Below are positions 14,748 through 54,507 of a stretch of 54,515 bases of DNA, in pieces. The DNA is from an uncultured Candidatus Saccharibacteria bacterium (GTDB lineage Bacteria; Patescibacteriota; Minisyncoccia; Phycocordibacterales; UBA918), in assembly GCA_964552045.1 (NCBI GenBank), contig CAZKFF010000008.1, positions 1 to 54,515 of the forward strand, in the 5' to 3' direction. Below the pieces are notes generated by a model, which had not been told where the DNA came from, did no database searches, and saw only the letters and a program-made list of their open reading frames with translations. The translations under genes and the position numbers were made by a program. Positions within the stretch are counted from its first letter, which is position 1, and each line of letters opens with the position of its first letter.

Positions 14748-14751
14748 CAAC

Positions 14752-16857: not shown

Positions 16858-16869
16858 TTAACAAACTTT

Positions 16870-18447: not shown

Positions 18448-18454
18448 CCATCGA

Positions 18455-19085: not shown

Positions 19086-19183
19086 AGGAACAATGCGGAG
19101 GACTGGCAGTCACATGAAAAGCCCGAAAAGGCAGCTTTTTGTTTGGCTAAACAGCTAACCATCAACATGATATTGTTGTTTAT

Positions 19184-19384: not shown

Positions 19385-19525
19385 AAGGCACGAGCAGAGA
19401 ATCCTGACGCAGTACTCCCTGAAAAGATCTATTTAAATGAGAACCTGTGATCGCCAGCATATCTGAGAAGGGTAAGATTCTGGATCCGAGCGCGGACAGT
19501 CCGGCATTTGTGCCATAATTTATCC

Positions 19526-20111
19526 ATGACCCAACCGGAAATAACAGAAAAGTCAGTTCGTTCCTTTACGACGGCACATGCTTGGCGTACCTGGCTCGAA
19601 AAAAAATCAAGGAAGAACAGATGGTGTTTGGCTGCGTATCTATAAAAAAGATTCAAGAAAAAAAACGGTCACATACGCTGAGGCACTTGACGAAGCGCTC
19701 TGCTACGGGTGGATAGACGGGCAAAGGAAAACGTACGATCCTGAATCCTTTTTGCAGAAGTTCACGCCCCGTCGGTCAAACAGCATGTGGTCGAAGCGGA
19801 ACCGTGAGCACGCCTTGCGTCTCATCAAAGAGAAACGCATGACTGCGGCTGGCCACGCTGAAATTGATGCCGCTCAAAAGGATGGACGATGGGAACAAGC
19901 ATATGACGCTCCCAGCACCATGACGATTCCAACGGATTTTCTCAAAACGCTAAAGAAGGACAAGAAAGCATACGAGTTTTTCAAGACCCTGAATAAGGCA
20001 AATACCTATGCCATTGCGTGGCGTCTGCAAACTGCACGCAAACCAGAGACGCGAGCGAAACGTATGGAATCGCTGTTCGCCATGATGAAAGAGGGAAAGA
20101 AATTGCATTAG
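19526..20111 (+). pseudogene. YdeI/OmpD-associated-family gene split by a +1 frameshift in an A8 run
   Basis: Frame A 19526..19645 gives MTQPEITEKSVRSFTTAHAWRTWLEKK.. then stops. Frame B (ORF 19578..20111) gives ..NQGRTDGVWLRIYKK..ALCYGWIDG... Removing one A from 19599-19606 gives a continuous WLEKNQGRTDGVWL. Confidence 0.7.
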
Positions 20112-20123
20112 CGTGGTAGCGAG

Positions 20124-20157
20124 AACATAAAAGCACCCGATCGGGTGCTTTTATGTT
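20124..20157. terminator. bidirectional palindromic terminator between convergent genes
   Basis: AACATAAAAGCACCCGATCGGGTGCTTTTATGTT, a perfect palindrome with A/T-rich flanks. Confidence 0.75.
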
Positions 20158-20164
20158 GACTGAA

Positions 20165-20914
20165 TTAGGCGAGGGTATTGCAATAGACGTGCATCGCATC
20201 GCGCATAAATTCAGGAAGATCGGGGTGGTACTTCTTGAAGGTTGCCGCGAAGCGCGGATCATCCACATACATGTTGGCAAGACCCCGATACAATTCAGGA
20301 TTTGGTTCGTAGAAGAACCGCAAGCCGTCGTAGTGTTTCGCTATCAGCGCTTGCACTTCAGGACTTTCCGCGCCGCTGCTCATATTTGCAACAATTTCTT
20401 TCAGGAGATCATCACCGGCTTTCTGCATCGCAGCCCGTTCTTCCTTCGTCAATTTTTCGTACTTTCCAACTGACTGCTTGAAAGCATCGGTGTCACCCCA
20501 GCGCTCTTTGGCTTCCTTGCTGTATGCCTCGTACTCTTCTTTGGTGAAGCCGCCATAGAGTTCTTTGTCGTGCATAGTTTTTTCCTTATTGATCTTTTTA
20601 ATCGTCTTATCAATCGTCTTCAGTAAGTCATTCATCCGCTTCTTTTTGATCTCGATCAGTTTCCGGTGATCTGCCAGAGCCGCGGTGAGGTCAAAGTGCG
20701 GATCAGCAAGTATGTGTTTTATTTCTTCGAGAGGGAACTCGAGTTCGCGAAAGAACATGATTTGCTGGAGCTTCAAGAGCTCTGCTTCGCCATACTGGCG
20801 ATAGCCGTTCTTCGCATTGCGGACAGGTTTCAGAAGCCCGATTGCATCATAGTGATGAAGTGTCCGAGTCGTTATGTCTGCGAGCGTCGCGAGTTGTTGA
20901 ACGGTGTATGTCAT
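20165..20914 (-). CDS. MerR-family transcriptional regulator with TipAS-like C-terminal domain
   Basis: MTYTVQQLATLADITTRTLHHYDAIGLL..GYRQY HTH, plus a ~140-aa C-terminal TipAS-like domain. Confidence 0.85.
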   Translation of the reverse strand: MTYTVQQLATLADITTRTLHHYDAIGLLKPVRNAKNGYRQYGEAELLKLQQIMFFRELEFPLEEIKHILADPHFDLTAALADHRKLIEIKKKRMNDLLKTIDKTIKKINKEKTMHDKELYGGFTKEEYEAYSKEAKERWGDTDAFKQSVGKYEKLTKEERAAMQKAGDDLLKEIVANMSSGAESPEVQALIAKHYDGLRFFYEPNPELYRGLANMYVDDPRFAATFKKYHPDLPEFMRDAMHVYCNTLA

Positions 20915-20957
20915 ATAACGTGCATGAGGACGATTGTGTATCGACCAACAGTAGCAG

Positions 20958-20988
20958 AGTCTAAACTATCACGCAACGTTAGAGTCAA
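20958..20988 (-). promoter_or_regulatory. MerR-type promoter with 19-bp spacer
   Basis: Minus strand reads TTGACT-CTAACGTTGCGTGATAGTT-TAGACT. The -35 is at 20988-20983 and the -10 at 20963-20958, 44 nt upstream of the merR-like ATG. Confidence 0.6.
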
Positions 20989-21069
20989 GTGATTGTGTAC
21001 TTCATACACTGTGGCAGGCAATCGAGGCAACTCATACTGAACAGTCAGCCGGTAGGTTACAATAAATTG

Positions 21070-21648
21070 ATGAAAAAAATAGTCATCGGAGTGATTGCTT
21101 TTGCTGTACTTCTTGCAGGGGCTTTGTATGTATTTAATGCATATATCTATGAGGTAAAGCAAGTGCCTGCATCCGGCGATTATAAAGACGGAGCGTATCG
21201 CATTGATGGCGTTCCGGTACAACTCAAAGACGGAATTTCTGAAATCGAAGCTGCGCCAGGGTCTGCTTCAAAGATCACCACTCGTTATTTTGGAAACGAA
21301 TATATGACTGACTTGGATAGCGATGGGCGGGAGGATGTTGTCTTTTTGGTAACGCAAGAAACAGGAGGGAGTGGGATTTTTTACTATGTTGTAGCTGCAC
21401 TTAATACAAAACGCGGATATGTTGGGTCTGATGCATATTTACTTGGTGATAGAATTGCCCCACAAACGATCGAAACGAGTTCCAATCCGCGACACAAGAA
21501 TGTGATAGTTGTGAACTATGCAAAGCATGCAGTGGACGAACCGATGTCTGCGCAACCTACAATCGGAACAAGCACCTATTTGAAGCTTGATGCCACCGAT
21601 ATGACATGGGGAATTGTCGAACCTCATTTCGAAGGAGAGTCGGGCTAA
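21070..21648 (+). CDS. hypothetical membrane-anchored or secreted protein
   Basis: ATG at 21070 in ORF 20989..21648. MKKIVIGVIAFAVLLAGALYVF. Divergent from the merR-like gene. Confidence 0.6.
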   Translation: MKKIVIGVIAFAVLLAGALYVFNAYIYEVKQVPASGDYKDGAYRIDGVPVQLKDGISEIEAAPGSASKITTRYFGNEYMTDLDSDGREDVVFLVTQETGGSGIFYYVVAALNTKRGYVGSDAYLLGDRIAPQTIETSSNPRHKNVIVVNYAKHAVDEPMSAQPTIGTSTYLKLDATDMTWGIVEPHFEGESG

Positions 21649-43990: not shown

Positions 43991-44680
43991 ATGAGTATCA
44001 CATCACAATACAACACGCTTGTCTTATTTGTCTTCGCGTTCACCACACTGCTCTTGCTGCCGTTCTCTGCTTCGGCGCATGAAACGCACATGTACGAGAT
44101 TAACGGCGCAACATATAAGTTCGTAGTCGGCTCGCTCAACGAACCGGTTATTGTCGACGATAAGACCGGCGCCAGTTTCGAGATAATCCGAAACGGCACA
44201 CCTCTTGTAGGAGCTCAGGATTCGCTGCAGTTGGAGATGAGTGCCGGCGATAAGAGCAGAGTCGTCAGCCTGAGCCCCGTACATGGTGCGGAGGGCCAAT
44301 ACAAGTCGGACTTCATCGCAACGGTCCCGACGACGCTTACTTACCGCGTGTACGGTACCCTTGAGGATACGGAGGTGGATCTCTCGTTCACCTGCAATCC
44401 TGCAGGTCATCCACAGTCGGAAGAGGATACAAACCGCACGGAAATAAGCGACAACGTTTTCCAGACGCTCAAGCGCGGCTCGTTCGGATGTCCGCAGCCT
44501 AAAGAAGCGTTCGGATTCCCTGAGGAAGCGCAAAGCTCATTCCAGATGGAACAGGCTGTTGCTGAAGTCGCTCAGAGTCAAAGCGACAGCAGTGCAGCAC
44601 AGCGGCCGCTGACAATGGGTGCACTTGCGCTCTCAGTCTTGGCATGCGCGCTTGCGGCATTCGCCATCAACAAAAAATAA
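43991..44680 (+). CDS. YcnI-like (DUF1775-like) copper-binding protein with C-terminal TM anchor
   Basis: The signal ends ..SASA/HETH, so the mature N-terminus would be His. Beta-rich domain and a C-terminal TM LTMGALALSVLACALAAFAI. Sits directly upstream of the copC-copD fusion, as ycnI-ycnJ does in B. subtilis. Confidence 0.55.
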   Translation: MSITSQYNTLVLFVFAFTTLLLLPFSASAHETHMYEINGATYKFVVGSLNEPVIVDDKTGASFEIIRNGTPLVGAQDSLQLEMSAGDKSRVVSLSPVHGAEGQYKSDFIATVPTTLTYRVYGTLEDTEVDLSFTCNPAGHPQSEEDTNRTEISDNVFQTLKRGSFGCPQPKEAFGFPEEAQSSFQMEQAVAEVAQSQSDSSAAQRPLTMGALALSVLACALAAFAINKK

Positions 44681-44701
44681 CAGCATAAGACCAAAAAAAC
44701 T

Positions 44702-46798
44702 ATGTGGTTTAGAAAAGTAGGGGTGTATGCCGCTATGGTCTCTGCTATAGCTTTATTGCCATCGCTGGCTTTTGCACATGCAACTCCAGTCTCATATGTT
44801 CCCGCAGCTTCTGCCACGGAATTGGCGGTTCCTTCATCGATTTCAATACGCTTTACGGAGCGTATTGAGGTGGGTGCGAGCAGTCTGACGGTATATGCGC
44901 CAGACGGTGCAGAGGTGAATGAAGGGAAGGGCGTGCTCGACCCCGCAGATGAGCGCGTTCTGTCTGTGCCAATCCGTGACTCAGGCGAGGGGGTTTATAC
45001 CGTGTCGTGGCAAGTAGTGTCTGTTGACGACGGACATTTCACGAAAGGAGCATATTCGTTTCTGGTGGATGCCACCGGGAAAGCCTATGAAGGCGGCGAC
45101 GCCGGAGTGGAGATCACATACAGCTCCAAATTGCCCGAAGCTGCGCTCTCATTCCTTAATCTCATAGGCGAAAGCCTGTTCCTTGCGGTTTTGCTGTGCG
45201 CAGCTTTCGTCATGCCTTCCGTCCGAAAGAAGATGCCGCAGCTTGCGGATGCCGGGTCAGTGTTCCTTCGTGCATGCGTGCATCTGGTATCAGTCGGATA
45301 TCTGCTGTTTGTCGCCGGAGGCCTGCTGAGCATCATGCACAAAAGTGCAGAGCTCGGTGCGCTGCAGAAAATAACCGTATTCGAAGCGATAACCACCTAT
45401 GCCGGGTCTTCGGCGGGGACATACGCAATACTCAAACTGCTTGCGGCAACAGTGTTCCTTGCGGTGTTCCTGAGTATACGTAAAAAACTGCCTGTCTTCC
45501 CGACGTGGGCGGTTGCGCTCCTGGGGGCGACGCTCGGCACGATCCTGTACATGCAGTCGCACATCAGCCATGCTGCAGCATCGCTTATACTTCCGAAATT
45601 CAGTATTTTCGTGACGTTCGTACACCTGGCGGCGAAAGAACTTGTTATCGGCAGTATCGTGGTACTCTTTATTTTCTTTGTCCTTTCGCTCAGACAACGA
45701 TCGCTTGGTCTTTTCTCTGGCATCGCATTGCGTCTTGACGTGTTCATCGCAGGAGCGCTGTGCTTTGCAAGTGTCTCGGGCGCATACATCACTTGGCTGC
45801 ATTTGAAGCACGGGATAAATATTGCCACAACCGAGTGGGGGGAACGGTTTCTGGTGCTTCTTGTTCTGACAGCGCTCTTCGGCGTCTTCAGGCTTCTCCA
45901 TCAGTGCATAACGGTACCGCGTCTGGCACAGACGCGCGTCCAGAGGCTCATGCTGTTCTCACTCCTTGTGGAGACAGGCATCGCCTTGGCGGTCCTCTTC
46001 TTCTCAGGATACATATCCATGACAACCCCGCCGTTCACTGTCGCACAGTATGATTATGCGAAGGAGTACACTTCTGAAGGAGTGCGGATACAGATGGGCG
46101 TGCATCCGTATGAGGAAGGGTCCATGCTCATCACGCTTACTGATGCTCATACGCACGCACCGATCGAGCCAACCAGCGTGATCGTGTCCGCCCACAATGA
46201 AGAGAAGGATATCGGACCTAATGTGCTGCCTTTGGCGCAGCGGTTCGAAGGAGGATACGTCTTTCCGCTTGCTGATCTGGTGCCGGCAGGCCAGTGGGAA
46301 CTGTCAGTGAACGCAGGACAGCAAAACGGATACGATGCGCATGCGATGTTTGCCTTAAACTATCCGCAGGATATCGAAGCAAGCGCCTGGTCGGATACTG
46401 TCCGGGTATTTGACGAGCTGGCAGTATGGACCATCGCTGCGGGCATTGGCATGCTTGTCTTCTTCTGCGCGTTGTTCGCGTATAGCAGCAGACAATGGGA
46501 CAAGGCGTCATATGCGCCCATAACCGCATCGCCTGTAGCTGCGTCTCAGTTCATCGCGGCAGCTGTAGGCGCGGTTGCCTGCATGCTCGCCCTGTTCTTT
46601 CTCTGGCAGCTTGTGGGGGTGTCCTCATTCCAGAAGCAGTGCATCGCCGACGGCTTCGCATGGCGGCAGGCGTTTCCTACCAGGGAGTTCGACGCCACGT
46701 CACAGAATGCGGTCGTCGGTTGCACGGTCCATGAGGGACACTATCATTTCGTCGACCAACGCGAATACCGTTTCTTCATGAAATCTCAACATGAATGA
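44702..46798 (+). CDS. CopC-CopD fusion protein (YcnJ-like) with extra C-terminal extracytoplasmic domain and Cys/His tail
   Basis: CopC: AHATPVSYVP..VYTVSWQVVSVDDGHFTKGAYSFLV. Then about 8 CopD-type TMs, an Ig-like segment (GVRIQMGVHPYEEG..WELSVNAG), 2 more TMs, and the tail ..GCTVHEGHYHF. Confidence 0.8.
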   Translation: MWFRKVGVYAAMVSAIALLPSLAFAHATPVSYVPAASATELAVPSSISIRFTERIEVGASSLTVYAPDGAEVNEGKGVLDPADERVLSVPIRDSGEGVYTVSWQVVSVDDGHFTKGAYSFLVDATGKAYEGGDAGVEITYSSKLPEAALSFLNLIGESLFLAVLLCAAFVMPSVRKKMPQLADAGSVFLRACVHLVSVGYLLFVAGGLLSIMHKSAELGALQKITVFEAITTYAGSSAGTYAILKLLAATVFLAVFLSIRKKLPVFPTWAVALLGATLGTILYMQSHISHAAASLILPKFSIFVTFVHLAAKELVIGSIVVLFIFFVLSLRQRSLGLFSGIALRLDVFIAGALCFASVSGAYITWLHLKHGINIATTEWGERFLVLLVLTALFGVFRLLHQCITVPRLAQTRVQRLMLFSLLVETGIALAVLFFSGYISMTTPPFTVAQYDYAKEYTSEGVRIQMGVHPYEEGSMLITLTDAHTHAPIEPTSVIVSAHNEEKDIGPNVLPLAQRFEGGYVFPLADLVPAGQWELSVNAGQQNGYDAHAMFALNYPQDIEASAWSDTVRVFDELAVWTIAAGIGMLVFFCALFAYSSRQWDKASYAPITASPVAASQFIAAAVGAVACMLALFFLWQLVGVSSFQKQCIADGFAWRQAFPTREFDATSQNAVVGCTVHEGHYHFVDQREYRFFMKSQHE

Positions 46799-46804
46799 GG
46801 TACT

Positions 46805-47758
46805 ATGTACGGTATGAAAAACATAGCAATCGTGATTGTGGCGCTCATCGTTGTGTTGGCCGTTGCCTCTATGTTTATAAGCTGGCAGGCAGCTCAGGTC
46901 ATTGATCAGAGTGGTACGCAGGTACCGCTTACAGAGGAGAGCACTGCGCACACACAAGAAACGGCCTATGGCTTTTCGTATGAGTACGAGCCAGACACGG
47001 ACGGGTATACCGTCGTTACTCCCGAGAATGCCACGCGCGGCGATCTGGTGTTCACGCAGTCAGTGTTTGACACGACCGATTATGAGGATCTGCAGCAGGG
47101 TGAGGTTCCCCGTGAAGCTCCCGCCTCGCTCACTATAGAGGTATATCGTAATCCGGCGAATCAGGAGACGCGCGAATGGATCACGCAGCACGATGAGTCG
47201 AACTACCATCTGAGCCCTGATGGCACGATCTCATCTGTCACGAAGAACAGCACGGAATTTCTGACCTATCAGTACGATGGGCTGTACCGTGCGGATGCAT
47301 ATGTAACCGGGAAGAATGGATACATATATGTATTCGCCAACATGTGGGACAATCCGCAGAGTGCGATGAAAACGGATATGGAGGAACTGCTTGAAACAGT
47401 GCAGTGGAGCACTCCGCAGGTGCCCGCACAGGCAGCGCATGGGGATATCATGGTCTTTTCCCCTGCATACAATGCCCACATCGGTTCTCCGCTTAAGGTC
47501 GAGGGTACCGCACGGGGCTTCTGGTACTTTGAAGGCTCATTTCCGCTTATGCTTGTCGATGCAAATGGGGATACTGTCGGAGAAGGCATTGCAACTGCCC
47601 AGGGTGAATGGATGACCGAGGATTTCGTCCCGTTTTCTGGAGAGGTCACATTCAGCGCGCCGGTTTCAGGGGAGGGAACACTCATCCTGAGGAAGGATAA
47701 TCCGTCAGGGATGCCTGAAAATGATGATTCCATCGAAATATCCGTACGGTTCGAGTGA
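46805..47758 (+). CDS. membrane-anchored protein with C-terminal Gmad2-type Ig-like domain
   Basis: GDIMVFSPAYNAHIGSPLKVEGTARGFWYFEGSFPLMLVDANGD..GEWMTEDFVPFSGEVTF. The alternative ATG at 46814 is 7 nt after TACTAT. Confidence 0.65.
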   Translation: MYGMKNIAIVIVALIVVLAVASMFISWQAAQVIDQSGTQVPLTEESTAHTQETAYGFSYEYEPDTDGYTVVTPENATRGDLVFTQSVFDTTDYEDLQQGEVPREAPASLTIEVYRNPANQETREWITQHDESNYHLSPDGTISSVTKNSTEFLTYQYDGLYRADAYVTGKNGYIYVFANMWDNPQSAMKTDMEELLETVQWSTPQVPAQAAHGDIMVFSPAYNAHIGSPLKVEGTARGFWYFEGSFPLMLVDANGDTVGEGIATAQGEWMTEDFVPFSGEVTFSAPVSGEGTLILRKDNPSGMPENDDSIEISVRFE

Positions 47759-47818
47759 TTTGAAAAAACCTGTCCGGCTGACTATACTGGAACCCGGGTC
47801 AGCACAAGGAAGGATATT

Positions 47819-48148
47819 ATGCGGTCTATCCAGGGAGAGCTCGCAGCAGCTCTTCGAGAAGCGACAGGTTTTGAAGTCGCCGGAGAATGGTGCGAAGGCA
47901 CATTCTATTTCGAATCCGACTGTTTCGAATTCTCCTGCGTCATGCACCAGGATGCGTTCGAGATCAGAAACATAGAGTGCACACAGAAAGGTGTCGGCAG
48001 AAAGATCGTGGAAGCAGTCCACGAATACTGTGACGACCGGGACCTGTGCGTCTTTGCAAGCTGCGTTGCAAGCAGCGCGATCGGATTCTGGCACAAGATG
48101 GGCTACGTCGAAAGCGGTGAACGCGATGAGTTCTTCCGTGTAGCGTAA
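47819..48148 (+). CDS. small GNAT-like (acetyltransferase C-terminal half) protein
   Basis: ..QKGVGRKIVEAV..AIGFWHKMGYVE resembles GNAT motifs A and B. It is short and the call is tentative. Confidence 0.4.
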   Translation: MRSIQGELAAALREATGFEVAGEWCEGTFYFESDCFEFSCVMHQDAFEIRNIECTQKGVGRKIVEAVHEYCDDRDLCVFASCVASSAIGFWHKMGYVESGERDEFFRVA

Positions 48149-48157
48149 CAATCATTG

Positions 48158-48184
48158 CAGCTCCGGGCATCCGGGGCTGTTTTG
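48158..48184 (+). terminator. intrinsic terminator
   Basis: CAGCTCCGG-GCAT-CCGGGGCTG followed by TTTTGTT. Confidence 0.65.
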
Positions 48185-48228
48185 TTCGGTCAAGCGCCAA
48201 TGTGCTAGGATATAAGGAGTTTTGTAAT

Positions 48229-48234
48229 TATAAT
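48229..48234 (+). promoter_or_regulatory. putative -10 TATAAT 8 nt upstream of the ATG at 48243
   Basis: ATTATAATCATATAGTATG. Confidence 0.4.
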
Positions 48235-48242
48235 CATATAGT

Positions 48243-48749
48243 ATGAAAACCGTTTACATTCTCATCGCAGCTTTAATTGTCATAGGAGGAGGCGTGTTGG
48301 GATATTTCTCATTCAACAAAACGCAAGAGGAACCGGTTCCCGAAGGGTATCACCGCATGGAAGACGGTACGCTGATGCGCAATGATGCGGGCGTCGAGGG
48401 CATGGGGGCGTTGCAGGAATTCCAGCTGAATGAAATGGAGCGGGAAAGCGCTTCATCTGCTGTCGATCAAAATGCACGCGTCTTTGATGTGAAGGGCATG
48501 AATTTCGCTTTCGATGTGAAAGAGATTCGAGTGAAGAAAGGCGATACTGTAGCAATCAACTTCGAAAGCACCGACGGCCTCCATGACTGGACACTCGACG
48601 AGTTTGATGCACAGACAAACCGGGTCCAGCCAGGCACGCCGACATCCGTCACGTTCGTCGCGGACGAAGCAGGTACATTTGAATATTACTGTTCAGTCGG
48701 CAATCACCGCGCACAAGGGATGGTCGGTACACTCGTCGTTGAAGAATAA
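48243..48749 (+). CDS. membrane-anchored cupredoxin (type-1 copper) domain protein
   Basis: Ligand pattern LHDW ... YYCSVGNHRAQGM (His; Cys-x4-His-x4-Met). Confidence 0.8.
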   Translation: MKTVYILIAALIVIGGGVLGYFSFNKTQEEPVPEGYHRMEDGTLMRNDAGVEGMGALQEFQLNEMERESASSAVDQNARVFDVKGMNFAFDVKEIRVKKGDTVAINFESTDGLHDWTLDEFDAQTNRVQPGTPTSVTFVADEAGTFEYYCSVGNHRAQGMVGTLVVEE

Positions 48750-48770
48750 TTATTTCCTGGGGCACTGCTC

Positions 48771-48776
48771 TATAAT
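48771..48776 (+). promoter_or_regulatory. putative -10 TATAAT 9 nt upstream of the ATG at 48786
   Basis: CTCTATAATCGAAACAGTATG. Confidence 0.4.
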
Positions 48777-48785
48777 CGAAACAGT

Positions 48786-49469
48786 ATGAAAAAACACACA
48801 TGGAAGATCGTATTTGTTGTTGCAGCGCTGTTGATGGGTGCTTCATTCCTGTACGCACATTACGTCAGCAGCAAGGCAAACGAAGGAGTGGTCATCTCCG
48901 ATCACTTTAAGGGAAATGAATCCGCCGCAGTCACGCTTACCGAGTATGCAGACTTCCAGTGTCCGGCCTGCGGGCAGTTCTATCCGATCATGAAAGAGGT
49001 CGAGACGCAGTATGGAGACAAACTCAGGATCGAGTTTAAGCACTTTCCACTGATGACCATCCATCCGTTTGCACTGCCAGCGGCTAAGGCAGCGGAAGCC
49101 GCTGGACAGCAGGGGCAATTTTGGCAAATGCATGACAAACTTTTTGAGAATCAGAACACCTGGTCACGGTCTGCAGCGCCGCAGGCATACTTTATCCAAT
49201 ATGCAGAGGAGCTTGGGCTCGACATGCCGTTGTTCAAGAAGCATCTGCGATCCTCGCTTCTGCAGGACCATATTGAAAGCCAATTCAATGAAGCTCAGGA
49301 TTTGGGTCTTACGGGTACTCCTTCCTTCTACCTCAATGGCGAGCGTCTGGAGTTCCAGACATTCGAGGAGTTTTTTGGCGCTATCGACGCAGCGCTCGGC
49401 ATCGCTCCGCAGGATGCGGCGCAGACTGTAGCTTCAAGCAGCGAGAATGGAGTAGAGTTCGGCATCTAG
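48786..49469 (+). CDS. DsbA-family thiol:disulfide oxidoreductase (second copy)
   Basis: N-terminal TM. Active site YADFQCPACGQFYP. Confidence 0.85.
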   Translation: MKKHTWKIVFVVAALLMGASFLYAHYVSSKANEGVVISDHFKGNESAAVTLTEYADFQCPACGQFYPIMKEVETQYGDKLRIEFKHFPLMTIHPFALPAAKAAEAAGQQGQFWQMHDKLFENQNTWSRSAAPQAYFIQYAEELGLDMPLFKKHLRSSLLQDHIESQFNEAQDLGLTGTPSFYLNGERLEFQTFEEFFGAIDAALGIAPQDAAQTVASSSENGVEFGI

Positions 49470-49475: not shown

Positions 49476-50807
49476 ATGGGTACGTCAATTGATACACACT
49501 GGTACAGGCAGCTTGCGCCACTCAGTATTGAGGTGCTGCATTACCTCAAGAGCGATCTGCACGGGCAAGAAGCACAGAGACTGGCGTTCTTTTCCGGAGA
49601 GGTTCAGGTGCCCTGTTTTGATTATTCTCATATTGAAATAGGACAGATCGAAGGGAAAGTTTCCGGTTTGAAGGAGTTGCGCGAACGTATCATCGCGCAG
49701 GAGAAGGAGGCAGTGGTAACTGAATTGTATACCGCGAAGATCGATGAGTATCTCGCCAATGCGCTTTTGCTGCGATCCGCGTATGAGGCTTCAGTCGCTC
49801 CACAGCACGGTTATGCTGCGATGGAGCATTTTAAAAAGGCGAACACGTATCTCTATGGGGAATTGGATGCCGACATGTTCAATCTGACACTGCGTACGCT
49901 GCGCAGGAAACTGGCCAATGTGCCGCAAGAGGTGCAAAGAAACCATCCGGAAGAGTATGCACGTCTGCAGCGGCTGGTACAGGATCTTCCTGTCCCTGCG
50001 CAGCGCTACGCCTTCGCTCTCGCACAACAGACTCCCCGGGATTCGAGGATCATACAGGATATTGTGGAGATAACGGGCTTGTTTCAAAGTGCGCTTCTGG
50101 ACCGGGGACTCGCAGATGTGTGGAAGGTACTGGTTGACACAACGGGTCTGCTGCAGACATTTTCGGTTGTCAATCATGAGCGGGTGCTCGCTATTCCCGG
50201 ACAGGAGTATTTTACTGCGCACGGCGGCTATACCGTTGCACAGCTCAACGGTCTTATCGCTCACGAGATCGATACGCATATCATCCGCAGGCATAATGGC
50301 AAACGATCGCTATTGCGTCTGCTCGGAGCCGGACTCGACCGGTATCACCGGGGCGAGGAAGGTATTGCGACGTTCAGGGCGCAGCGGGAAAAGGGATCGC
50401 GTTCGTTCGCCGGTTTCCTCGGGTATCTGTCGCTCGGATTGACGCAGGGAATGGAGCGCGGCGGCGCCGCGAAGGACTTCGCGGAGCTGTATACATTGCT
50501 GAATGCATATTTCCTGGTAGTCGGGGGGTTCACCCAGCCGATAGCGCAGATGCGGGCATGGCATGCCTGCTGGCGGGTATTCCGTGGAACGACCTGTGCC
50601 GAGCCAGGAGTGGTTTTCAAACGAGACGCGATGTATCGACAGGGCAATATTCTCATCCATCAGCTTCTTGCGGCGTATCCTGATGCGGAGAAGGATTTCG
50701 ACGTGGGGAATTTCGATCCAACAAAGAAAACACACATCACTGCGCTGTTAAAACTGCGACTGCTCTCGGGAGAACCATGGGAAACGCTTGCTACCGCATC
50801 GCAATAG
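49476..50807 (+). CDS. DUF1704 / QEGLA-motif metallopeptidase-like protein (tyrosine/phenylalanine carboxypeptidase-like fold)
   Basis: HExxH-like IAHEIDTHIIR and QEGLA-like GEEGIATF, 443 aa. Confidence 0.7.
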   Translation: MGTSIDTHWYRQLAPLSIEVLHYLKSDLHGQEAQRLAFFSGEVQVPCFDYSHIEIGQIEGKVSGLKELRERIIAQEKEAVVTELYTAKIDEYLANALLLRSAYEASVAPQHGYAAMEHFKKANTYLYGELDADMFNLTLRTLRRKLANVPQEVQRNHPEEYARLQRLVQDLPVPAQRYAFALAQQTPRDSRIIQDIVEITGLFQSALLDRGLADVWKVLVDTTGLLQTFSVVNHERVLAIPGQEYFTAHGGYTVAQLNGLIAHEIDTHIIRRHNGKRSLLRLLGAGLDRYHRGEEGIATFRAQREKGSRSFAGFLGYLSLGLTQGMERGGAAKDFAELYTLLNAYFLVVGGFTQPIAQMRAWHACWRVFRGTTCAEPGVVFKRDAMYRQGNILIHQLLAAYPDAEKDFDVGNFDPTKKTHITALLKLRLLSGEPWETLATASQ

Positions 50808-50814
50808 CGTGTAT

Positions 50815-51588
50815 CTAGTCTCCACTTTGACGGATGATCGTCTCAACCGGCAGCAGGTGGGGATATTTTGTCGCCTGTGTATATTTTTCTTTCGTGTCTT
50901 CTGTACAGATAAGGTACGCCTGCTTCACCTGCCGGCCTTCTGGCGGACACTGCAATATGAGCGTATCGCAGGTTGCTGCGTCAGTATCGAAGGTCAGTAT
51001 TTCCTGTGCAGATGCAGGGATCAACGCAGTGCATCCTATGGAAAGTTTGAACGCAGCCAATCCGATGTATGAATTGACGCCATAGGGGTTGCGATCCCTG
51101 CCATGGGAAAGTTTAGGCAGTCCGCGTTCGTACGCATATGTATTGATAAGGTACTCGGTATAGAGCGAAGGGTTTGCCTGGAGCGTAACACTTGACCATT
51201 TATGCGGATAGATGCGGTATGCAATGGACAGCATGGTCTTCCGTTCGGAAAAAATGGTGGCACCGATGCGCTGCCTGTTCTCGTACAGCAGGAGCGCGTA
51301 ATAGGTATACGGAGACTCTTTCCCGAGCGTCGTACCGTAAATATCGGAGACTTTCGGATTCGCTCTGTTTGATATCTCCTGCGTATACAAAGGAGTGAAC
51401 CATTGGAGGATATCATCAGACAACGGCTCAATGCTGTAGGTGATCCGAGAGAGGTCGTCGTGTCTGAGGGTTGAGCGCAGCTGCGCCTGGCTGCTTTTCC
51501 CCATGAGTGACAAGGGGTCTTCGACTACCGGTTTATACCACGCATGTTCAGGAATATAGGGTATCTTCATGAACGTAGAGTATAGCAT
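50815..51588 (-). CDS. GNAT-fold, FemAB/Acetyltransf_6-like protein
   Basis: C-terminal SHGRDRNPYGVNSYIGLAAFKLSIG resembles the ..G..FK..G end of Fem/CelD-like acyl or peptidyl transferases. Tentative. Confidence 0.45.
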   Translation of the reverse strand: MLYSTFMKIPYIPEHAWYKPVVEDPLSLMGKSSQAQLRSTLRHDDLSRITYSIEPLSDDILQWFTPLYTQEISNRANPKVSDIYGTTLGKESPYTYYALLLYENRQRIGATIFSERKTMLSIAYRIYPHKWSSVTLQANPSLYTEYLINTYAYERGLPKLSHGRDRNPYGVNSYIGLAAFKLSIGCTALIPASAQEILTFDTDAATCDTLILQCPPEGRQVKQAYLICTEDTKEKYTQATKYPHLLPVETIIRQSGD

Positions 51589-51729
51589 TATTTGCCGCCC
51601 CGTTCTTCACCCTCTTGAAAAAGGAGGGTAATTTTAGTATCCTAATACGCATATTAGATTCTGACAGACATCATTCAGAACGCAACTCGCTTGGCGCACA
51701 CGCCATTTTTTTTTCGAAATCTATTTTCT

Positions 51730-52989
51730 ATGCAGCATAAGAAAAACATTGTGGTCTTTGTGGAGCAGTACATTCCGCAGGCGGTGAAGAGCGTCCGAAA
51801 GCACTTCAAGGATATCGAGATACTGTTGCTCCGTGATATCAAAGACCGGCCAAAGGACAACGGCAGGGTCTTCAATGTCGATCATCTTGCGTATGTCGAT
51901 TTCACCAAGCCGCTGAAGATCGCCGAGGCGCTTCTGCCGTACCAGGAGCGGATGCTCTGTATCACCGCGCGCGGAGAGGGAGGCGCCAATAAGCTCAAAG
52001 AGGTCATCCCGCACGTGCCGTATCTGCGGACGCCGACGCGCGAATCGCTCGACTGGGCAACAGACAAATATGAGATGCGCAAGCGTATGAAGCTCTTCGA
52101 CCCCAAGAATACGCCGCGTTTCACCAAGATCAGCGAGAATTCGAAGAAGGAGCGCAACCGCGTCATTGAGAAGGTCGGCTTTCCGCTCGTCATCAAGCCG
52201 GCGAACCTGCAGGAGAGCCTCTTAGTGACCATCTGCTTCCATGCAGAGGAATTCGAGAAAGCGCTCGGGAACGTCTTCCGGAAACTACGGAAGGAGTATC
52301 AGCGCATTGGACGTTCGCAACTGCCGACGATCATGGCTGAGGAATTTATGGAGGGTGATATGTATTCCATAGATTCATACGTCAATTCGCGCGGAGAAAT
52401 ATTCCACTGCCCATTGGTTCGCGTCATGACCGGACGCAATATCGGACGCGAGGATTTTTATAATTACAAGCAGACCTCACCGGCTTCGCTGAAAAAAGAA
52501 ACAGTGGAAAAAGCGCAGCGGGTTGCGGAAACCGCCATCCATGCGCTTGGACTGCGCAGCATCACGGCGCACGTAGAACTCATGAAGATGGACGATGAGT
52601 GGAAGATCATTGAGATCGGTCCGCGTGTCGGCGGCTTTCGTCCGCTCCTCTATGAGCTCAGCTGCGACATAGATCACTCGCTGAACGATGTACTCGTCCG
52701 TATTCCGCGAAAACCGATCATTCCTAAAAAATGCAAAGGGTTCGCTACTGCCATGAAATGGTTCGCAGATAAGGAGGGGAAGATCGTTGAAATGAAAGGC
52801 ATCAAAAAGATCGAATCGCTCGAGTCCTTCCACAGTATTGTCATGAACAAAAAAGTCGGCGACCGTTCAACATTTGCAAAGAATGGAGGCATTTCCATAT
52901 TCAACCTCTTCCTCTATAACAGCGACCGTTCGAAACTGCTCGCTGACATCCGGCGGGTGGAGCAGCTTGTGAAGATAAAGGTTGGCTGA
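51730..52989 (+). CDS. ATP-grasp ligase (L-amino-acid-ligase-like)
   Basis: GFPLVIKPANLQESLLV, MAEEFMEGDMYSIDSYV, HVELMKMDDEWKIIEIGPRVGG. ATG at 51730. Confidence 0.75.
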   Translation: MQHKKNIVVFVEQYIPQAVKSVRKHFKDIEILLLRDIKDRPKDNGRVFNVDHLAYVDFTKPLKIAEALLPYQERMLCITARGEGGANKLKEVIPHVPYLRTPTRESLDWATDKYEMRKRMKLFDPKNTPRFTKISENSKKERNRVIEKVGFPLVIKPANLQESLLVTICFHAEEFEKALGNVFRKLRKEYQRIGRSQLPTIMAEEFMEGDMYSIDSYVNSRGEIFHCPLVRVMTGRNIGREDFYNYKQTSPASLKKETVEKAQRVAETAIHALGLRSITAHVELMKMDDEWKIIEIGPRVGGFRPLLYELSCDIDHSLNDVLVRIPRKPIIPKKCKGFATAMKWFADKEGKIVEMKGIKKIESLESFHSIVMNKKVGDRSTFAKNGGISIFNLFLYNSDRSKLLADIRRVEQLVKIKVG

Positions 52990-53043: not shown

Positions 53044-53841
53044 ATGATCAGGAAACGGGATCTCATTGTCTTCATTGTCGTCTTGTTTGTGCTGCTTTTG
53101 TGTATTGCGGTGACGCTTGTTGCCGGCAGTGTGAAGGTGTCCCCGACAGGAGTACTCTTCACGGGAGATGAAGCTCCTCAGGAATTCACCGCCCAGGCTC
53201 CGCAGAATGACCTCAACAGAGAAGATATTATTTCGCGTCTGCGAAACGCCCTTGCACAGAACCAAAGCGATATCGAGCCGCAACCGAGTGTCGAGGAAGA
53301 CGCGGTCGAAGAAACGCAGACCATGGGAGAAGTCGATGAGCCTACGGGGGTGGACCGATGCGGTGGAGCCGATGATGCGCTTGCGTATGTGAAATCGTGG
53401 CCGCTTGCGGGCGTCGGGGTGGAGCAACAGGGAGGTGTACGAACTGTCGTGCATACGCAACAAATCACCGGTGTTCCGCTTCCGTATGCTTCCTCCACAG
53501 CTTCGTCTACACAGGGACAGACACGCACAGTGCTGCTCACGCTTCCTACTTCCCCGTATGCGACAGGCGAGACGCACTGCGTACCGAGCGATGTCATCGG
53601 CGTCACCACTTCCGGATCGTTGATGTTCAACAGTGACGCCGCCTTCTACCGCGGATATGGCACTGAATACCTCATCGGCTATGCCCGTGATGGATATCCC
53701 ATTTACGGCTACTATGAAGGGACGCTCGACAGCTGCGGCGGTTACATGCACCCATCCGGTTACCGTTACTCTGTGTCGGCGTCAAAGGATCATCTGCTGA
53801 GCTGCTATACGGCGACGCCCGCTTCTTTCACCGGATTGTAA
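53044..53841 (+). CDS. membrane-anchored YHYH-domain-like protein
   Basis: TM LIVFIVVLFVLLLCIAVTLVAG. C-terminal ..GYPIYGYYEGTLDSCGGYMHPSGYRYSV resembles the D.CGGH..YHYH pattern. Confidence 0.55.
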   Translation: MIRKRDLIVFIVVLFVLLLCIAVTLVAGSVKVSPTGVLFTGDEAPQEFTAQAPQNDLNREDIISRLRNALAQNQSDIEPQPSVEEDAVEETQTMGEVDEPTGVDRCGGADDALAYVKSWPLAGVGVEQQGGVRTVVHTQQITGVPLPYASSTASSTQGQTRTVLLTLPTSPYATGETHCVPSDVIGVTTSGSLMFNSDAAFYRGYGTEYLIGYARDGYPIYGYYEGTLDSCGGYMHPSGYRYSVSASKDHLLSCYTATPASFTGL

Positions 53842-54507
53842 ATGAGTATGGCCACACTTATCTTTGATATTGAAACGGTAGGTGAGGATTGGAAAACGCT
53901 CGACGCACTTACACAACATACGCTCACGCGGTGGATACAGAAGACCTCGCACACTAAGAGTGAACAGGACGCACTTCTGGAGGATCTCAAACAGGGATTG
54001 GGTTTTTCTCCGTTGACGGGTACGATCGTTGCTATCGGCCTGTACGACCTTGAACGCAGACAGGGAGCGGTGTATTACACCGGATTGTCGGACGAGGGGG
54101 ATATACCGCACGGGGAGTTCATTCTCAGGCAGTGTTCTGAGAAGGAGATGCTTGAAGCGTTCTGGGAAGGCGCAAAGAGCTATGACACCTTTGTGACATA
54201 CAACGGCAGGGAGTTCGATGTGCCGTTTATACTGCACCGTTCGGTCGCGCACGGTGTTGTACCGACCTGTCCGCTCATGGAAGGACGATATCTCTACCAG
54301 CAGAAGACGGTACGCCACGTCGATCTGCAGGATCAGCTTACGTTCTATGGTGCGATGCGCCGCAGGCCGAGTCTTCATCTGTTCTGCCGCTTATACGGTA
54401 TAGAGAGCCCGAAAGCGGGAGGTATCGGAGGCGATGATGTCGCGGGCAATTTTGGGGGCCAAAAATTACCCCACCACGCACCTGATAAAAAACCCCAAGT
54501 TCAATAA
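53842..54507 (+). CDS. RNase-H-fold 3'-5' exonuclease (PolB-exo/YprB-like); 3' end unreliable
   Basis: Exo I motif LIFDIETVG, plus TYNGREFDVPFI. The last ~25 codons lie in homopolymer-inflated contig-end sequence. Confidence 0.65.
   Translation: MSMATLIFDIETVGEDWKTLDALTQHTLTRWIQKTSHTKSEQDALLEDLKQGLGFSPLTGTIVAIGLYDLERRQGAVYYTGLSDEGDIPHGEFILRQCSEKEMLEAFWEGAKSYDTFVTYNGREFDVPFILHRSVAHGVVPTCPLMEGRYLYQQKTVRHVDLQDQLTFYGAMRRRPSLHLFCRLYGIESPKAGGIGGDDVAGNFGGQKLPHHAPDKKPQVQ

What the first reader, a model, noticed from the sequence alone, without database searches (positions are those of the whole stretch)
49476..52989. QEGLA/DUF1704 metallopeptidase + Fem/GNAT-like protein + ATP-grasp ligase: candidate ligation-and-trimming system
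Three neighbours carry complementary chemistries. The first is an ATP-grasp enzyme resembling L-amino-acid ligases, which form peptide bonds. The second is a divergently transcribed GNAT-fold protein with a Fem/CelD-like C-terminus, which suggests aminoacyl or acyl transfer. The third is a DUF1704 protein with HExxH-like HEIDTH and QEGLA-like EEGIA motifs; that fold is associated with removal of C-terminal residues. Together they resemble the ligase/peptidase pairs that add and remove amino acids on a peptide, a metabolite or a protein C-terminus. I know of no characterised system with this exact trio. The two ligase-type genes share a 141-nt divergent control region containing short inverted repeats (CTAATA-CGCA-TATTAG).
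Basis: inference. Interest (0 to 1): 0.65.

Follow-up and report, generated by a model that had tools for sequence, protein, structure and literature searches.

The report
Peptide-ligase gene pair with optional trimming peptidase
In this uncultured ultra-small (CPR/Paceibacteria) bacterium, an ATP-driven amino-acid ligase and an unannotated, probably tRNA-dependent aminoacyl transferase form a conserved gene pair, and a carboxypeptidase related to the human tubulin-trimming enzyme MATCAP sits beside them in only some lineages; the product they make is unknown.

Summary
The three genes and their motifs are real. A (49476-50807) belongs to the MATCAP/DUF1704 family and has invariant HExxxH and EEG motifs. 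C (51730-52989) is an ATP-grasp enzyme whose nearest solved structures are L-amino-acid ligases. B (50815-51570) matches no Pfam or NCBIfam family. Its high-confidence model resembles only aminoacyl-tRNA-dependent tandem-GNAT transferases (Sbb17/Sba18, FemX, MprF, ATE1), and it keeps their aromatic-Lys motif.

Surveys of about 110 related loci split the trio in two. B and C are neighbours in all but one B-seeded locus, across four gene arrangements and down to 29-45% identity. RimK-type ligases often join them. The MATCAP gene accompanies them in only about six lineages.

MATCAP-like genes of CPR bacteria are nevertheless often next to other ATP-grasp modules. In many relatives an Rlo-like module (7TM_transglut plus ATPgrasp_ST fused to a retropepsin) fills the slot that B+C fill here.

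Best reading: a cytoplasmic two-chemistry peptide-building module with an optional antagonistic carboxypeptidase, comparable to RimK/RimB and RloABC. The acceptor is unknown, and peptidoglycan side-chain synthesis is the main rival. The named inverted repeat is no more than chance and is not conserved. I rate this a new variant of a known kind, of moderate interest.

The parts
49476..50807 (+). Gene A: MATCAP/DUF1704-family HExxxH metallopeptidase, a predicted cytoplasmic carboxypeptidase. It is a lineage-specific accessory. It starts 6 nt after the dsbA-like gene and ends 7 nt from the convergent end of B.
   Evidence: Pfam PF08014, 48.3 bits against cut-off 27. A profile of 18 homologs hits human MATCAP 7z5g at E 4.5e-4 over the catalytic core. 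H263, E264, H268, E295, G296 and A298 are invariant. Present in only about 6 B+C lineages.
50262..50279 (+). HEIDTH (residues 263-268): the HExxxH zinc-binding and catalytic motif of gene A.
   Evidence: The motif is defined for TMCP/MATCAP in PMC10499314.
50355..50369 (+). EEGIA (residues 294-298): the EEG motif that supplies the presumed third metal ligand of gene A.
   Evidence: PMC10499314.
50815..51570 (-). Gene B: a 251-aa member of an unannotated family of minimal Fem/Sbb17/MprF/ATE1-like tandem-GNAT proteins, a predicted aminoacyl-tRNA-dependent aminoacyl transferase. The longest ORF extends to 51588.
   Evidence: No Pfam, NCBIfam or PDB sequence hit. AlphaFold2 model pLDDT 95.9. Top Foldseek hits are all aa-tRNA-dependent transferases. 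The family has 439 clusters at 50% identity. Start codon.
51031..51108 (-). Signature block of the B family: SHGRDRNPYG...IGLAAFKLSIGC (residues 161-186 of the long ORF). It includes the family-invariant Lys181 preceded by an aromatic residue, Phe180.
   Evidence: The analogous F304-K305 of FemX and F328-K329 of DhpH-C are catalytic (PMC12945691).
51571..51729 (.). Divergent intergenic region between B and C. It holds a weak sigma-70-like match for C (51615-51643), chance-level 6-nt inverted repeats, and a terminator-like hairpin followed by T9 (51692-51714) in the leader of C.
51730..52989 (+). Gene C: a 419-aa ATP-grasp ligase of the L-amino-acid-ligase type, basic (pI 9.6). It is the most conserved gene of the block.
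   Evidence: ATP-grasp_4, 65.6 bits. PDB sequence hits 4dim, 3vot and BacD. Model pLDDT 89. Foldseek: 3vot TM 0.79/0.80, BacD 0.77, RizA 0.69-0.74. 1601 homologs found. Identity table. pI.
48786..49469 (+). DsbA-like membrane-anchored thiol-disulfide oxidoreductase. It is the constant syntenic neighbour, lying directly upstream of A here and directly beside B where A is absent. Probably not part of the system.

Best explanation
The functional unit is the divergent pair B+C, not the trio.

C is an L-amino-acid-ligase-type ATP-grasp enzyme. It activates a carboxylate as an acyl-phosphate and joins it to the amine of an amino acid.

B founds an unannotated family of minimal Fem-like tandem-GNAT proteins. 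It most likely takes an aminoacyl group from a charged tRNA and puts it on a free amine, using its invariant aromatic-Lys motif.

Neither protein has a signal peptide or membrane segment. I propose that they act in the cytoplasm on one shared acceptor and build a short non-ribosomal peptide or peptide tail by two complementary chemistries. In other lineages one or more RimK-type glutamate ligases join the same operon and would extend the product.

A is an active-looking HExxxH carboxypeptidase of the MATCAP family. In this lineage it would remove C-terminal residues from that product, limiting or recycling it. RimB plays that role against RimK, and RloA against RloC.

Shown: the family and fold assignments, the conserved motifs, and the gene linkage. 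Inferred: use of aminoacyl-tRNA, a shared acceptor, and the direction and role of trimming. Unknown: the acceptor and which amino acids are added.
For: Linkage of B and C:
- B-seeded loci L001-L025 comprise about 19 distinct loci. C is next to B in all but L018.
- All three C-seeded loci have B upstream.
- The pair survives rearrangement: divergent in most; C->B in L023; C->RimK->B overlapping in L017; C->B->RimK in L025 and L030, at 45% (C) and 29-31% (B) identity.
- A still more distant B-like gene sits inside a five-gene ligase operon: 7TM_transglut, ATPgrasp_ST, B-like, RimK, a 611-aa protein, RimK, ATP-grasp_3 (L029).

B:
- Model pLDDT 95.9.
- The best Foldseek hits are Sba18/Sbb17 (E 6.5e-8), FemX, A-PGS/MprF and ATE1, all aa-tRNA-dependent.
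- Lys181 preceded by an aromatic residue is invariant down to 17% identity. It matches the catalytic Lys305 of FemX and F328-K329 of DhpH-C.
- By my reading of the alignment, there is no Q/RxxGxG/A CoA-binding loop between beta4 and alpha3.

C:
- Its nearest solved structures are L-amino-acid ligases.

A:
- The catalytic motifs are intact and invariant.
- MATCAP/TMCP enzymes are carboxypeptidases that remove C-terminal Tyr and Glu.
- Of 22 CPR MATCAP-like loci with at least 5 kb on both sides, 13 carry an ATP-grasp ligase and 10 carry a 7TM_transglut gene.
- In L007, which lacks MATCAP, two M14 carboxypeptidase genes lie just beyond DsbA.

Precedents for a ligase opposed by a peptidase: RimK/RimB and RloABC.
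Against: - No substrate or product is identified, and nothing here is biochemical.
- B's similarity to Fem-type enzymes is at fold level only (TM 0.45-0.50, 10-16% identity). No sequence model of FemAB or Acetyltransf_6 reaches significance.
- My alignment of the FK motif with FemX K305 rests on its position in the helix after beta5 of the model, not on a superposition.
- A is absent from most B+C loci, is convergent with B, and is co-directional with dsbA and 6 nt downstream of it.
- The whole block (methyltransferase, DsbA, [MATCAP], ligase module, D_265, exonuclease, GH1) is syntenic across Paceibacteria. A's adjacency could therefore be inherited gene order.
- None of 80 MATCAP-seeded loci has B or C.
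Confidence: 0.5

Rival explanations
1. Peptidoglycan side-chain or cross-bridge synthesis. B would be the FemX equivalent of CPR bacteria, adding Gly or an L-amino acid from aa-tRNA to the stem peptide of a cytoplasmic precursor. C would add a D-Asp- or D-Glu-type residue, as the Asl-type ATP-grasp ligases do. A, or the M14 enzymes elsewhere, would be a cytoplasmic stem-peptide carboxypeptidase.
For: Fem transferases and ATP-grasp ligases are the two enzyme classes known to build peptidoglycan side chains (PMC2655667). FemX is among B's best structural matches. Tandem B paralogs in L006, L021 and L028 recall FemA/FemB or BppA1/A2. Cell-wall genes occur nearby in some loci: an M23 peptidase beside B in L018, YkuD about 6 kb away in L006, L027 and L028, and YceG in L009. 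C is the most conserved gene of the block.
Against: C's nearest relatives are free-amino-acid ligases (BL00235, BacD, RizA), not Ddl. No D-aspartate-ligase model appeared among the 25 NCBIfam hits shown, of 29 in all. B's top structural hits are the small natural-product enzymes Sba18/Sbb17 rather than FemX. B lacks most of Fem domain 1, which binds UDP-MurNAc-pentapeptide. The recurrent partners are RimK-type glutamate ligases and Rlo-like modules, not mur genes. No mur, ddl or pbp gene is adjacent in any of about 30 loci.
Confidence: 0.2
2. The MATCAP gene is beside B+C only through inherited gene order. It works on something unrelated, for example general peptide turnover or a task connected with the dsbA/copper operon it follows.
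For: A starts 6 nt after dsbA and runs in the same direction, while it is convergent with B. It is present in only about 6 B+C lineages. The pattern DsbA->MATCAP recurs whatever ligase module follows. Nine of 22 well-flanked MATCAP loci have no detected ligase, and their neighbours are unrelated: IF-2, glutamate dehydrogenase, RecR, SRAP, HSP20. A evolves much faster than B or C.
Against: MATCAP-like genes are next to ATP-grasp ligases in several unrelated arrangements: 7TM->ATPgrasp_ST->RimK...MATCAP; MATCAP<-RimK<-ATP-grasp, MATCAP; and MATCAP->M14->M14. That is 13 of 22 well-flanked loci. By my rough estimate, not a measured control, a random 12-kb CPR window would give under 10%. In Photobacterium the QEGLA/DUF1704 gene RS17025 is adjacent by locus tag to a GshB-annotated ATP-grasp gene, RS17020, in the same expression table.
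Confidence: 0.3
3. B is an ordinary acyl-CoA-dependent N-acyltransferase that caps the amine of the dipeptide made by C. No tRNA is involved.
For: B has a GNAT fold. A few family members give faint hits to Acetyltransf_3 and Acetyltransf_6: 2 and 4 of 60 members, best E 0.014 and 0.055. The clavulanate tandem GNAT and aminoglycoside acetyltransferases appear lower in the Foldseek list. Capping of a peptide by a GNAT linked to ATP-grasp ligases has been proposed for other operons (PMC4431377).
Against: The best-scoring structural neighbours are aa-tRNA-dependent enzymes, apart from the uncharacterised 3frm at rank 13; acetyltransferases first appear at rank 23, at E about 1e-4 or worse. The canonical CoA pyrophosphate-binding motif is absent by my reading of the alignment. 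The invariant aromatic-Lys motif is the hallmark of Fem/DhpH-type transferases.
Confidence: 0.08
4. A secondary-metabolite cassette. C and B would make a bioactive di- or tripeptide in the manner of bacilysin, rhizocticin or dehydrophos. A would serve as a maturation or self-protection peptidase.
For: The closest characterised relatives of both enzymes come from antibiotic pathways: BacD and RizA for C; Sbb17/Sba18 and the DhpH/PacB class for B.
Against: The pair is conserved in a fixed chromosomal context across a whole CPR class, with C at 45-71% identity. That pattern is typical of housekeeping genes, not of patchy biosynthetic clusters. No transporter, tailoring enzyme or unusual-precursor gene is linked. 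CPR genomes are very small.
Confidence: 0.1

Closest known systems
RimK/RimB of Pseudomonas (glutamate ligase and opposing peptidase acting on ribosomal protein S6)
   Same: A cytoplasmic ATP-grasp ligase that adds residues to a C-terminus is paired with a peptidase that removes them. RimK-family genes join B+C in L007, L017, L025/L030 and L029.
   Different: The window has no RimK-family gene. Its ligase is of the LAL type. Its peptidase is a MATCAP-type metalloenzyme, not a retropepsin. A Fem-like transferase is present, which Rim systems lack. The target is unknown.
RloABC of Pseudomonas aeruginosa (retropepsin peptidase, 7TM inactive transglutaminase, ATP-grasp)
   Same: In many CPR relatives the slot between DsbA/MATCAP and the D_265/exonuclease genes holds a 7TM_transglut gene plus an ATPgrasp_ST gene fused to a retropepsin-like domain. 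That is an Rlo-like module, with a MATCAP gene directly upstream. In Pseudomonas, loss of the peptidases is rescued by mutating RloB or RloC.
   Different: In the window that module is replaced by B+C. There is no membrane component and no retropepsin. The Rlo peptidases are secreted, whereas A has no signal peptide.
Eukaryotic tubulin tail cycle (TTL/TTLL ATP-grasp ligases, MATCAP/TMCP and M14 CCP carboxypeptidases)
   Same: A shares the family and the HExxxH and EEG catalytic motifs with MATCAP/TMCP. ATP-grasp ligases, and in some loci M14 carboxypeptidases, are neighbours.
   Different: C is not a TTL-family enzyme. No tubulin-like substrate is implied. The Pfam match covers only the catalytic core (profile positions 170-303 of 365). 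This is a resemblance in logic, not orthology of a pathway.
FemABX and natural-product aa-tRNA-dependent GNAT transferases (FemX, MurM, DhpH-C, PacB, Orf11/Sbb17)
   Same: Tandem-GNAT-like fold, an aromatic-Lys motif in the helix after beta5, and no CoA-binding loop.
   Different: B has about 250 residues against 285-430, with a much reduced first domain. It matches no FemAB or Acetyltransf_6 sequence model. It is confined to CPR bacteria and always lies beside ATP-grasp ligases.
L-amino-acid ligases (BL00235, BacD/YwfE, RizA)
   Same: ATP-grasp_4 domain, a weak LAL_C2 match, and best structural similarity (TM 0.77-0.80).
   Different: Only 15-17% identity. C is strongly basic (pI 9.6). It is conserved as a chromosomal core gene of a CPR class rather than sitting in an antibiotic cluster.

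Membership tests
MATCAP / DUF1704 (Pfam PF08014) | Match to the family HMM above the gathering score | tested here: met
   48.3 bits against 27, residues 255-401, profile positions 170-303 of 365. All 18 homologs carry a precomputed PF08014 hit.
MATCAP / DUF1704 (Pfam PF08014) | HExxxH motif plus a downstream EEG motif (metal ligands and catalytic Glu) | tested here: met
   HEIDTH at 263-268 and EEGIA at 294-298. Both are invariant in the alignment and align with the HEIGTH and EEGLA of human MATCAP 7z5g. Motifs as defined in PMC10499314.
MATCAP / DUF1704 (Pfam PF08014) | Carboxypeptidase activity on C-terminal residues | not testable with these tools
   Needs an enzyme assay.
TIGR02421 'QEGLA motif protein' (proteobacterial equivalog) | Score above the equivalog cut-off | tested here: not met
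   30.7 bits against a cut-off of 338.65. A is a distant family member, not an ortholog.
FemABX-type aminoacyl-tRNA-dependent GNAT transferases | Sequence membership (Pfam FemAB, Acetyltransf_6 or DUF2156) | tested here: not met
   The query has no hit. Only 4 of 60 family members touch Acetyltransf_6, best E 0.055. Distant members have no hits either.
FemABX-type aminoacyl-tRNA-dependent GNAT transferases | Tandem-GNAT fold similar to solved members | tested here: met
   Model pLDDT 95.9. Foldseek probability 1.0: Sba18/Sbb17 E 6.5e-8 to 1.7e-7, FemX 5e-6, MprF and ATE1 about 1e-5. TM is only 0.35-0.50, and the first domain is reduced.
FemABX-type aminoacyl-tRNA-dependent GNAT transferases | Catalytic Lys preceded by an aromatic residue in the helix after beta5 (FemX F304-K305, DhpH-C F328-K329) | tested here: inconclusive
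   F180-K181 lies in helix 175-183, after strand 159-166. The Lys is invariant and the preceding residue is F or Y across the whole family. I inferred the equivalence from topology; no structural superposition was available.
FemABX-type aminoacyl-tRNA-dependent GNAT transferases | Use of aminoacyl-tRNA as donor | not testable with these tools
   Needs biochemistry.
L-amino-acid ligases (ATP-grasp_4 + LAL_C2) | ATP-grasp_4 domain above the gathering score | tested here: met
   65.6 bits against 27.
L-amino-acid ligases (ATP-grasp_4 + LAL_C2) | LAL C-terminal domain 2 | tested here: inconclusive
   18.7 bits against a cut-off of 29.4 over profile positions 4-77 of 78. The result is similar in the L025 homolog (20.9 bits).
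L-amino-acid ligases (ATP-grasp_4 + LAL_C2) | Closest overall fold to solved LALs | tested here: met
   3vot TM 0.79/0.80, BacD 0.77/0.70, RizA 0.69/0.74. All rank ahead of biotin carboxylases and PurK.
Rim / Rlo ligase-peptidase systems | RimK- or RloC-type ATP-grasp with a retropepsin peptidase (and a 7TM inactive transglutaminase for Rlo) | tested here: not met
   None of these is in the window. They occur in related loci, either joining B+C (RimK) or replacing B+C (Rlo-like).
Known anti-phage defence systems | Match to PADLOC models | tested here: not met
   No hits for A, B or C.

The most novel reading that the evidence does not exclude
B+C, with RimK, MATCAP-like and M14 enzymes as interchangeable partners, form a protein-tailing system of CPR bacteria. 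It would add amino acids post-translationally to a terminus of a conserved cellular protein, by an ATP-grasp route and by a tRNA-dependent route, and trim them off again. That would make it a prokaryotic counterpart, and possibly an evolutionary source, of the eukaryotic toolkit of TTL/TTLL, ATE1, MATCAP and CCP enzymes. Weak hints in this direction are the basic pI of C, the C->B pair placed directly before rpsS/rpsC in L023, and the RimK partners.
Probability: 0.12. Interest if true: 0.85.

Novelty: new variant of a known kind. Interest (0 to 1): 0.55.

Why it matters
Operons that combine several amide-bond ligases, and ligase/peptidase pairs such as RimK/RimB and RloABC, are a known kind of system.

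Three things appear to be undescribed. I base that on searches of the available literature; one key survey paper could not be read.
- An unannotated family of about 250-residue Fem-like transferases. It has 439 clusters at 50% identity, no Pfam model, and all members I could place taxonomically are CPR bacteria or mislabelled CPR-like MAGs.
- Its near-obligate pairing with a conserved L-amino-acid-ligase-type ATP-grasp enzyme.
- Bacterial MATCAP homologs sitting beside ATP-grasp modules.

If the model is right, organisms with minimal genomes keep a tRNA-dependent non-ribosomal peptide-building step as a core function. That step would be a tractable entry to unknown CPR physiology, whether cell envelope, a small peptide, or protein tailing.

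It would also give a bacterial context in which to ask what MATCAP-type carboxypeptidases did before tubulin existed.

Tried and rejected
- Sequence-only identification of B gave nothing usable. Pfam and NCBIfam had no hits. A profile against PDB sequences returned only spurious CNOT1 matches. Scanning each family member against Pfam gave only faint GNAT hits. Distant members had no Pfam hits.
- A as a single sequence against PDB gave nothing. A profile was needed.
The promoter scan was not above shuffled controls. No Rfam family matched the intergenic region. The leader folds only weakly, z = -1.97.
- I looked for a small carrier or precursor ORF. The 95-aa ORF before C in L025 and L030 looks hydrophobic, like a small membrane protein (my reading of its sequence), not like LysW or a precursor peptide. 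There is no small ORF in the window's spacer.
- The anti-phage defence reading found no PADLOC hits.
- The 281-aa gene between C and B in L017 is not a B paralog (hhalign probability 0.2). It is RimK.
- The key survey paper (Iyer et al. 2009, PMC3268129) is not held. I could cite only its summary in PMC4431377.
- Literature searches for DUF1704 with ATP-grasp, QEGLA, and Patescibacteria with ATP-grasp or FemAB found no description of this system.
- I first thought C was exceptionally conserved. The identity table shows it is the slowest-evolving gene of the block, but only modestly ahead of DsbA and the exonuclease.

Full report
**What is at the coordinates.** The window is a CPR/Patescibacteria (Paceibacteria-type) contig. 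Every homolog that a source names comes from Candidatus Paceibacterota, Kaiserbacteria or similar MAGs. Three ORFs fill 49476-52989.

Gene A (49476-50807, +, 443 aa) hits Pfam MATCAP (PF08014, formerly DUF1704) at 48.3 bits against a cut-off of 27. It hits the proteobacterial QEGLA equivalog only weakly, 30.7 bits against 338.65.

Gene B (50815-51588, -, 257 aa) hits nothing in Pfam or NCBIfam.

Gene C hits ATP-grasp_4 at 65.6 bits and LAL_C2 weakly. Its likely start is ATG 51730, giving 419 aa, the length of the 95%-identical homolog. B probably starts at its second ATG, 51570, because homologs begin with MKI and the first ATG is missing in the closest relative.

A follows a DsbA-like gene by 6 nt on the same strand and ends 7 nt from the convergent end of B. 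B and C diverge from a 141-159-nt spacer. None of the three has an N-terminal hydrophobic segment.

**Gene A.** In an alignment of 18 homologs (29-71% identity), H263, E264, H268, E295, G296 and A298 are invariant. A profile of that alignment matches human MATCAP (7z5g) over the catalytic core. HEIxTH aligns with HEIGTH, and EEGIA with EEGLA. These are the HExxxH and EEG motifs that define the TMCP/MATCAP metallocarboxypeptidases, which remove C-terminal Tyr and Glu from tubulin tails (PMC10499314).

**Gene B.** B has 94 word-indexed homologs and 439 clusters at 50% identity in an exhaustive profile search. All are about 245-285 aa with no Pfam domain. With 60 homologs, AlphaFold2 gives a model of pLDDT 95.9. 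It shows one complete GNAT domain (about residues 49-190), with the N- and C-terminal segments forming a reduced second lobe.

The best-scoring Foldseek hits against the PDB are aminoacyl-tRNA-dependent transferases: Sba18/Sbb17 (E 6.5e-8, TM 0.45-0.49), FemX, A-PGS/MprF and ATE1. Acetyltransferases appear only much lower in the list.

The family signature SHG(R/K)DRNPYG...IGLAxFKLxxGC places an invariant Lys, preceded by Phe or Tyr, in the helix after beta5. This holds even in members at 17-25% identity. In FemX the corresponding Lys305 is the only reactive active-site residue. In DhpH-C, F328 and K329 are required for activity (PMC12945691). I did not see the CoA pyrophosphate-binding motif in the beta4-alpha3 loop.

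The "Fem/CelD-like" reading is therefore supported at the level of fold and motif. Sequence membership in FemAB or Acetyltransf_6 is not met, and tRNA use remains an inference.

**Gene C.** The best PDB sequence matches are 4dim, the L-amino-acid ligase BL00235 (3vot) and BacD. The model (pLDDT 89) is closest to 3vot (TM 0.79/0.80), BacD (0.77) and RizA. All rank ahead of biotin carboxylases. C has 1601 detected homologs, and the top 120 are 61-95% identical. It is the slowest-evolving gene of the block and is strongly basic, pI 9.6.

**Is the trio linked?** I surveyed loci seeded in three ways.

- B-seeded loci (L001-L025, about 19 distinct). C is next to B in all but L018. The MATCAP gene is present only in L001 (two copies), L003 (two copies plus a second ATP-grasp gene), L004 and L011.
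- C-seeded loci (L026-L028). All three have B upstream, and one has MATCAP.
- A locus seeded with a 56%-identical A homolog shows the same arrangement as the window.

The B-C pairing is not only inherited order. It persists as C->B (L023), as C->RimK->B with overlapping genes (L017), and as C->B->RimK in a distant lineage with different flanks (L025 and L030; C 45%, B about 30% identical). A still more distant B-like gene of a Beckwithbacteria MAG lies in the operon 7TM_transglut -> ATPgrasp_ST -> B-like -> RimK -> 611-aa protein -> RimK -> ATP-grasp_3. In L007 the neighbours are RimK and, beyond DsbA, two M14 carboxypeptidases, with no MATCAP.

The core is therefore B+C. RimK, MATCAP and M14 are variable partners.

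**MATCAP-seeded survey.** Eighty metagenome loci encode proteins 26-43% identical to A. None contains B or C. Thirty-four of the 80 carry an ATP-grasp ligase within 6 kb. Among the 22 loci with at least 5 kb on both sides, 13 carry a ligase and 10 carry a 7TM_transglut gene.

About 14 loci show the order DsbA -> MATCAP -> 7TM_transglut -> ATPgrasp_ST -> D_265 -> exonuclease. That is the same syntenic slot that holds [<-B C->] in the window. Pfam confirms that the ATPgrasp_ST proteins are fused to a retropepsin-like (Zn_protease/RimB-like) domain. This is an Rlo-like module. In Pseudomonas aeruginosa, RloA retropepsins, the 7TM inactive transglutaminase RloB and the ATP-grasp RloC form an operon. 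Defects caused by loss of the peptidases are rescued by mutating RloB or RloC. RimB likewise trims the glutamates that RimK adds to S6 (bioRxiv 10.1101/2025.03.18.643919).

The remaining MATCAP loci have unrelated neighbours. In Photobacterium the QEGLA/DUF1704 gene is adjacent by locus tag to a GshB-annotated ATP-grasp gene.

**Interpretation.** The best-supported model is a cytoplasmic peptide-building module. C works by acyl-phosphate chemistry, and B probably by aminoacyl-tRNA chemistry, on a shared acceptor. RimK extends the product in some lineages. A MATCAP-type carboxypeptidase acts here as an optional antagonist or recycler. I give this 0.5.

The acceptor is unknown. The main rival is peptidoglycan side-chain synthesis, at 0.2. 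Fem transferases and ATP-grasp ligases are the two enzyme classes that build such side chains (PMC2655667). Tandem B paralogs and scattered cell-wall neighbours fit that reading. Against it, C resembles free-amino-acid ligases, the recurrent partners are RimK and Rlo-like rather than mur genes, and B lacks most of the Fem precursor-binding domain.

It also remains possible, at 0.3 and not exclusive of the above, that A is adjacent only by inherited order. It appears to belong to the dsbA transcription unit and is absent from most B+C loci.

Two further readings are less likely. One is that B is a CoA-dependent capping enzyme (0.08). The other is that the genes form an antibiotic-type cassette (0.1).

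**The control region.** CTAATA-CGCA-TATTAG is real (51642-51657), but it is one of seven 6-nt inverted pairs in 201 nt, and its left arm differs in the closest relative. The single promoter-like match is within shuffled expectation. No Rfam family matches. What is conserved between the window and L004 is TTCTGA...TCAGAA, together with a TGGCG-loop-CGCCA hairpin followed by T9 directly upstream of C. The hairpin loop differs between the two sequences. The leader folds only modestly better than shuffles, z = -1.97.

**Novelty.** Linked amidoligases of the ATP-grasp and GNAT classes are a recognised theme (PMC4431377 citing Iyer et al. 2009). Ligase/peptidase antagonism is established for Rim and Rlo. 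I found no description of the B family, of its pairing with this ATP-grasp enzyme, or of bacterial MATCAP contexts. I classify the finding as a new variant of a known kind, with interest 0.55.

Noticed in passing
window 51659-51714: The leader of the ATP-grasp gene holds a hairpin TTCTGA...TCAGAA, then TGGCGCACACGCCA followed by T9, which looks like a terminator or attenuator. Both stems are conserved in the closest relative, L004, and the second hairpin has a different loop there. No Rfam match. Fold z-score is only -1.97.
   Followed up: partly
window 51570-51588: The longest ORF of B begins at ATG 51588, but homologs begin at the second Met (MKI..., 51570). The upstream ATG is not conserved in L004, so the likely product is 251 aa and the spacer is 159 nt.
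   Followed up: yes
L057, L061, L063, L069, L083, L087, L088, L091, L092, L098, L102, L103, L105, L109: In these relatives the slot that holds B+C in the window is filled by 7TM_transglut plus ATPgrasp_ST fused to a retropepsin-like (RimB/RloA-like) domain, with MATCAP directly upstream. This looks like in-situ replacement of one ligase module by another, and it means Rlo-like systems exist in CPR bacteria.
   Followed up: partly
L029 148-7860: A Candidatus Beckwithbacteria operon runs 7TM_transglut, ATPgrasp_ST, B-like GNAT, RimK, a 611-aa protein with no Pfam hit, RimK, ATP-grasp_3, all on one strand. That is four ATP-grasp ligases plus the Fem-like protein.
   Followed up: no
L023 24-3504: Here C->B lies directly upstream of the ribosomal protein genes rpsS and rpsC (S10-operon genes). 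This is a single observation at a contig end. It may hint at a ribosomal target, as with RimK and S6.
   Followed up: no
L006 1941-3438; L021 7203-8735; L028 5417-6918; L027 5404-7002: B occurs as two tandem paralogs in several lineages. In L027 the second copy is split into fragments of 108 and 139 aa.
   Followed up: no
L018 6400-8735: This is the only B locus with no ATP-grasp gene within 8 kb. B is divergent from a 488-aa Peptidase_M23 / FG-GAP protein.
   Followed up: no
L054 2771-3829: A RimK-type ligase in a 7TM/ATPgrasp_ST/RimK/MATCAP locus also gives a short hit to the tubulin-tyrosine-ligase family (PF03133, 29.1 bits, whole-protein score only).
   Followed up: no
window 53044-54507: A membrane-anchored 265-aa protein with a weak YHYH hit and a PolB-exonuclease-like (DNA_pol_B_exo2) gene follow the ligase module in nearly all relatives, whichever module is present. 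They seem to be syntenic anchors rather than system parts.
   Followed up: partly
window 43991-49469 and 12031-21648: There are two copper/redox gene groups. One, directly upstream of A, is a CopC-CopD fusion, Gmad2, cupredoxin and DsbA. The other lies in a lower-GC stretch (0.455-0.483 against about 0.53) and comprises a DsbA paralog, a CopA-type P-type ATPase with a heavy-metal-binding domain, a multicopper oxidase and a MerR/TipAS regulator.
   Followed up: partly
L025 6244-6531; L030 4369-4656: A conserved 95-aa ORF, hydrophobic enough to look like a small membrane protein, and a thioredoxin-reductase-like Pyr_redox_2 gene precede the C->B->RimK operon in this distant lineage. L025 is labelled Gammaproteobacteria but looks CPR-like.
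   Followed up: partly
window 51730-52989: The ATP-grasp protein is strongly basic (pI 9.6), whereas A and B are near neutral. This is compatible with an acidic or nucleic-acid-associated substrate, but I did not analyse it further.
   Followed up: no
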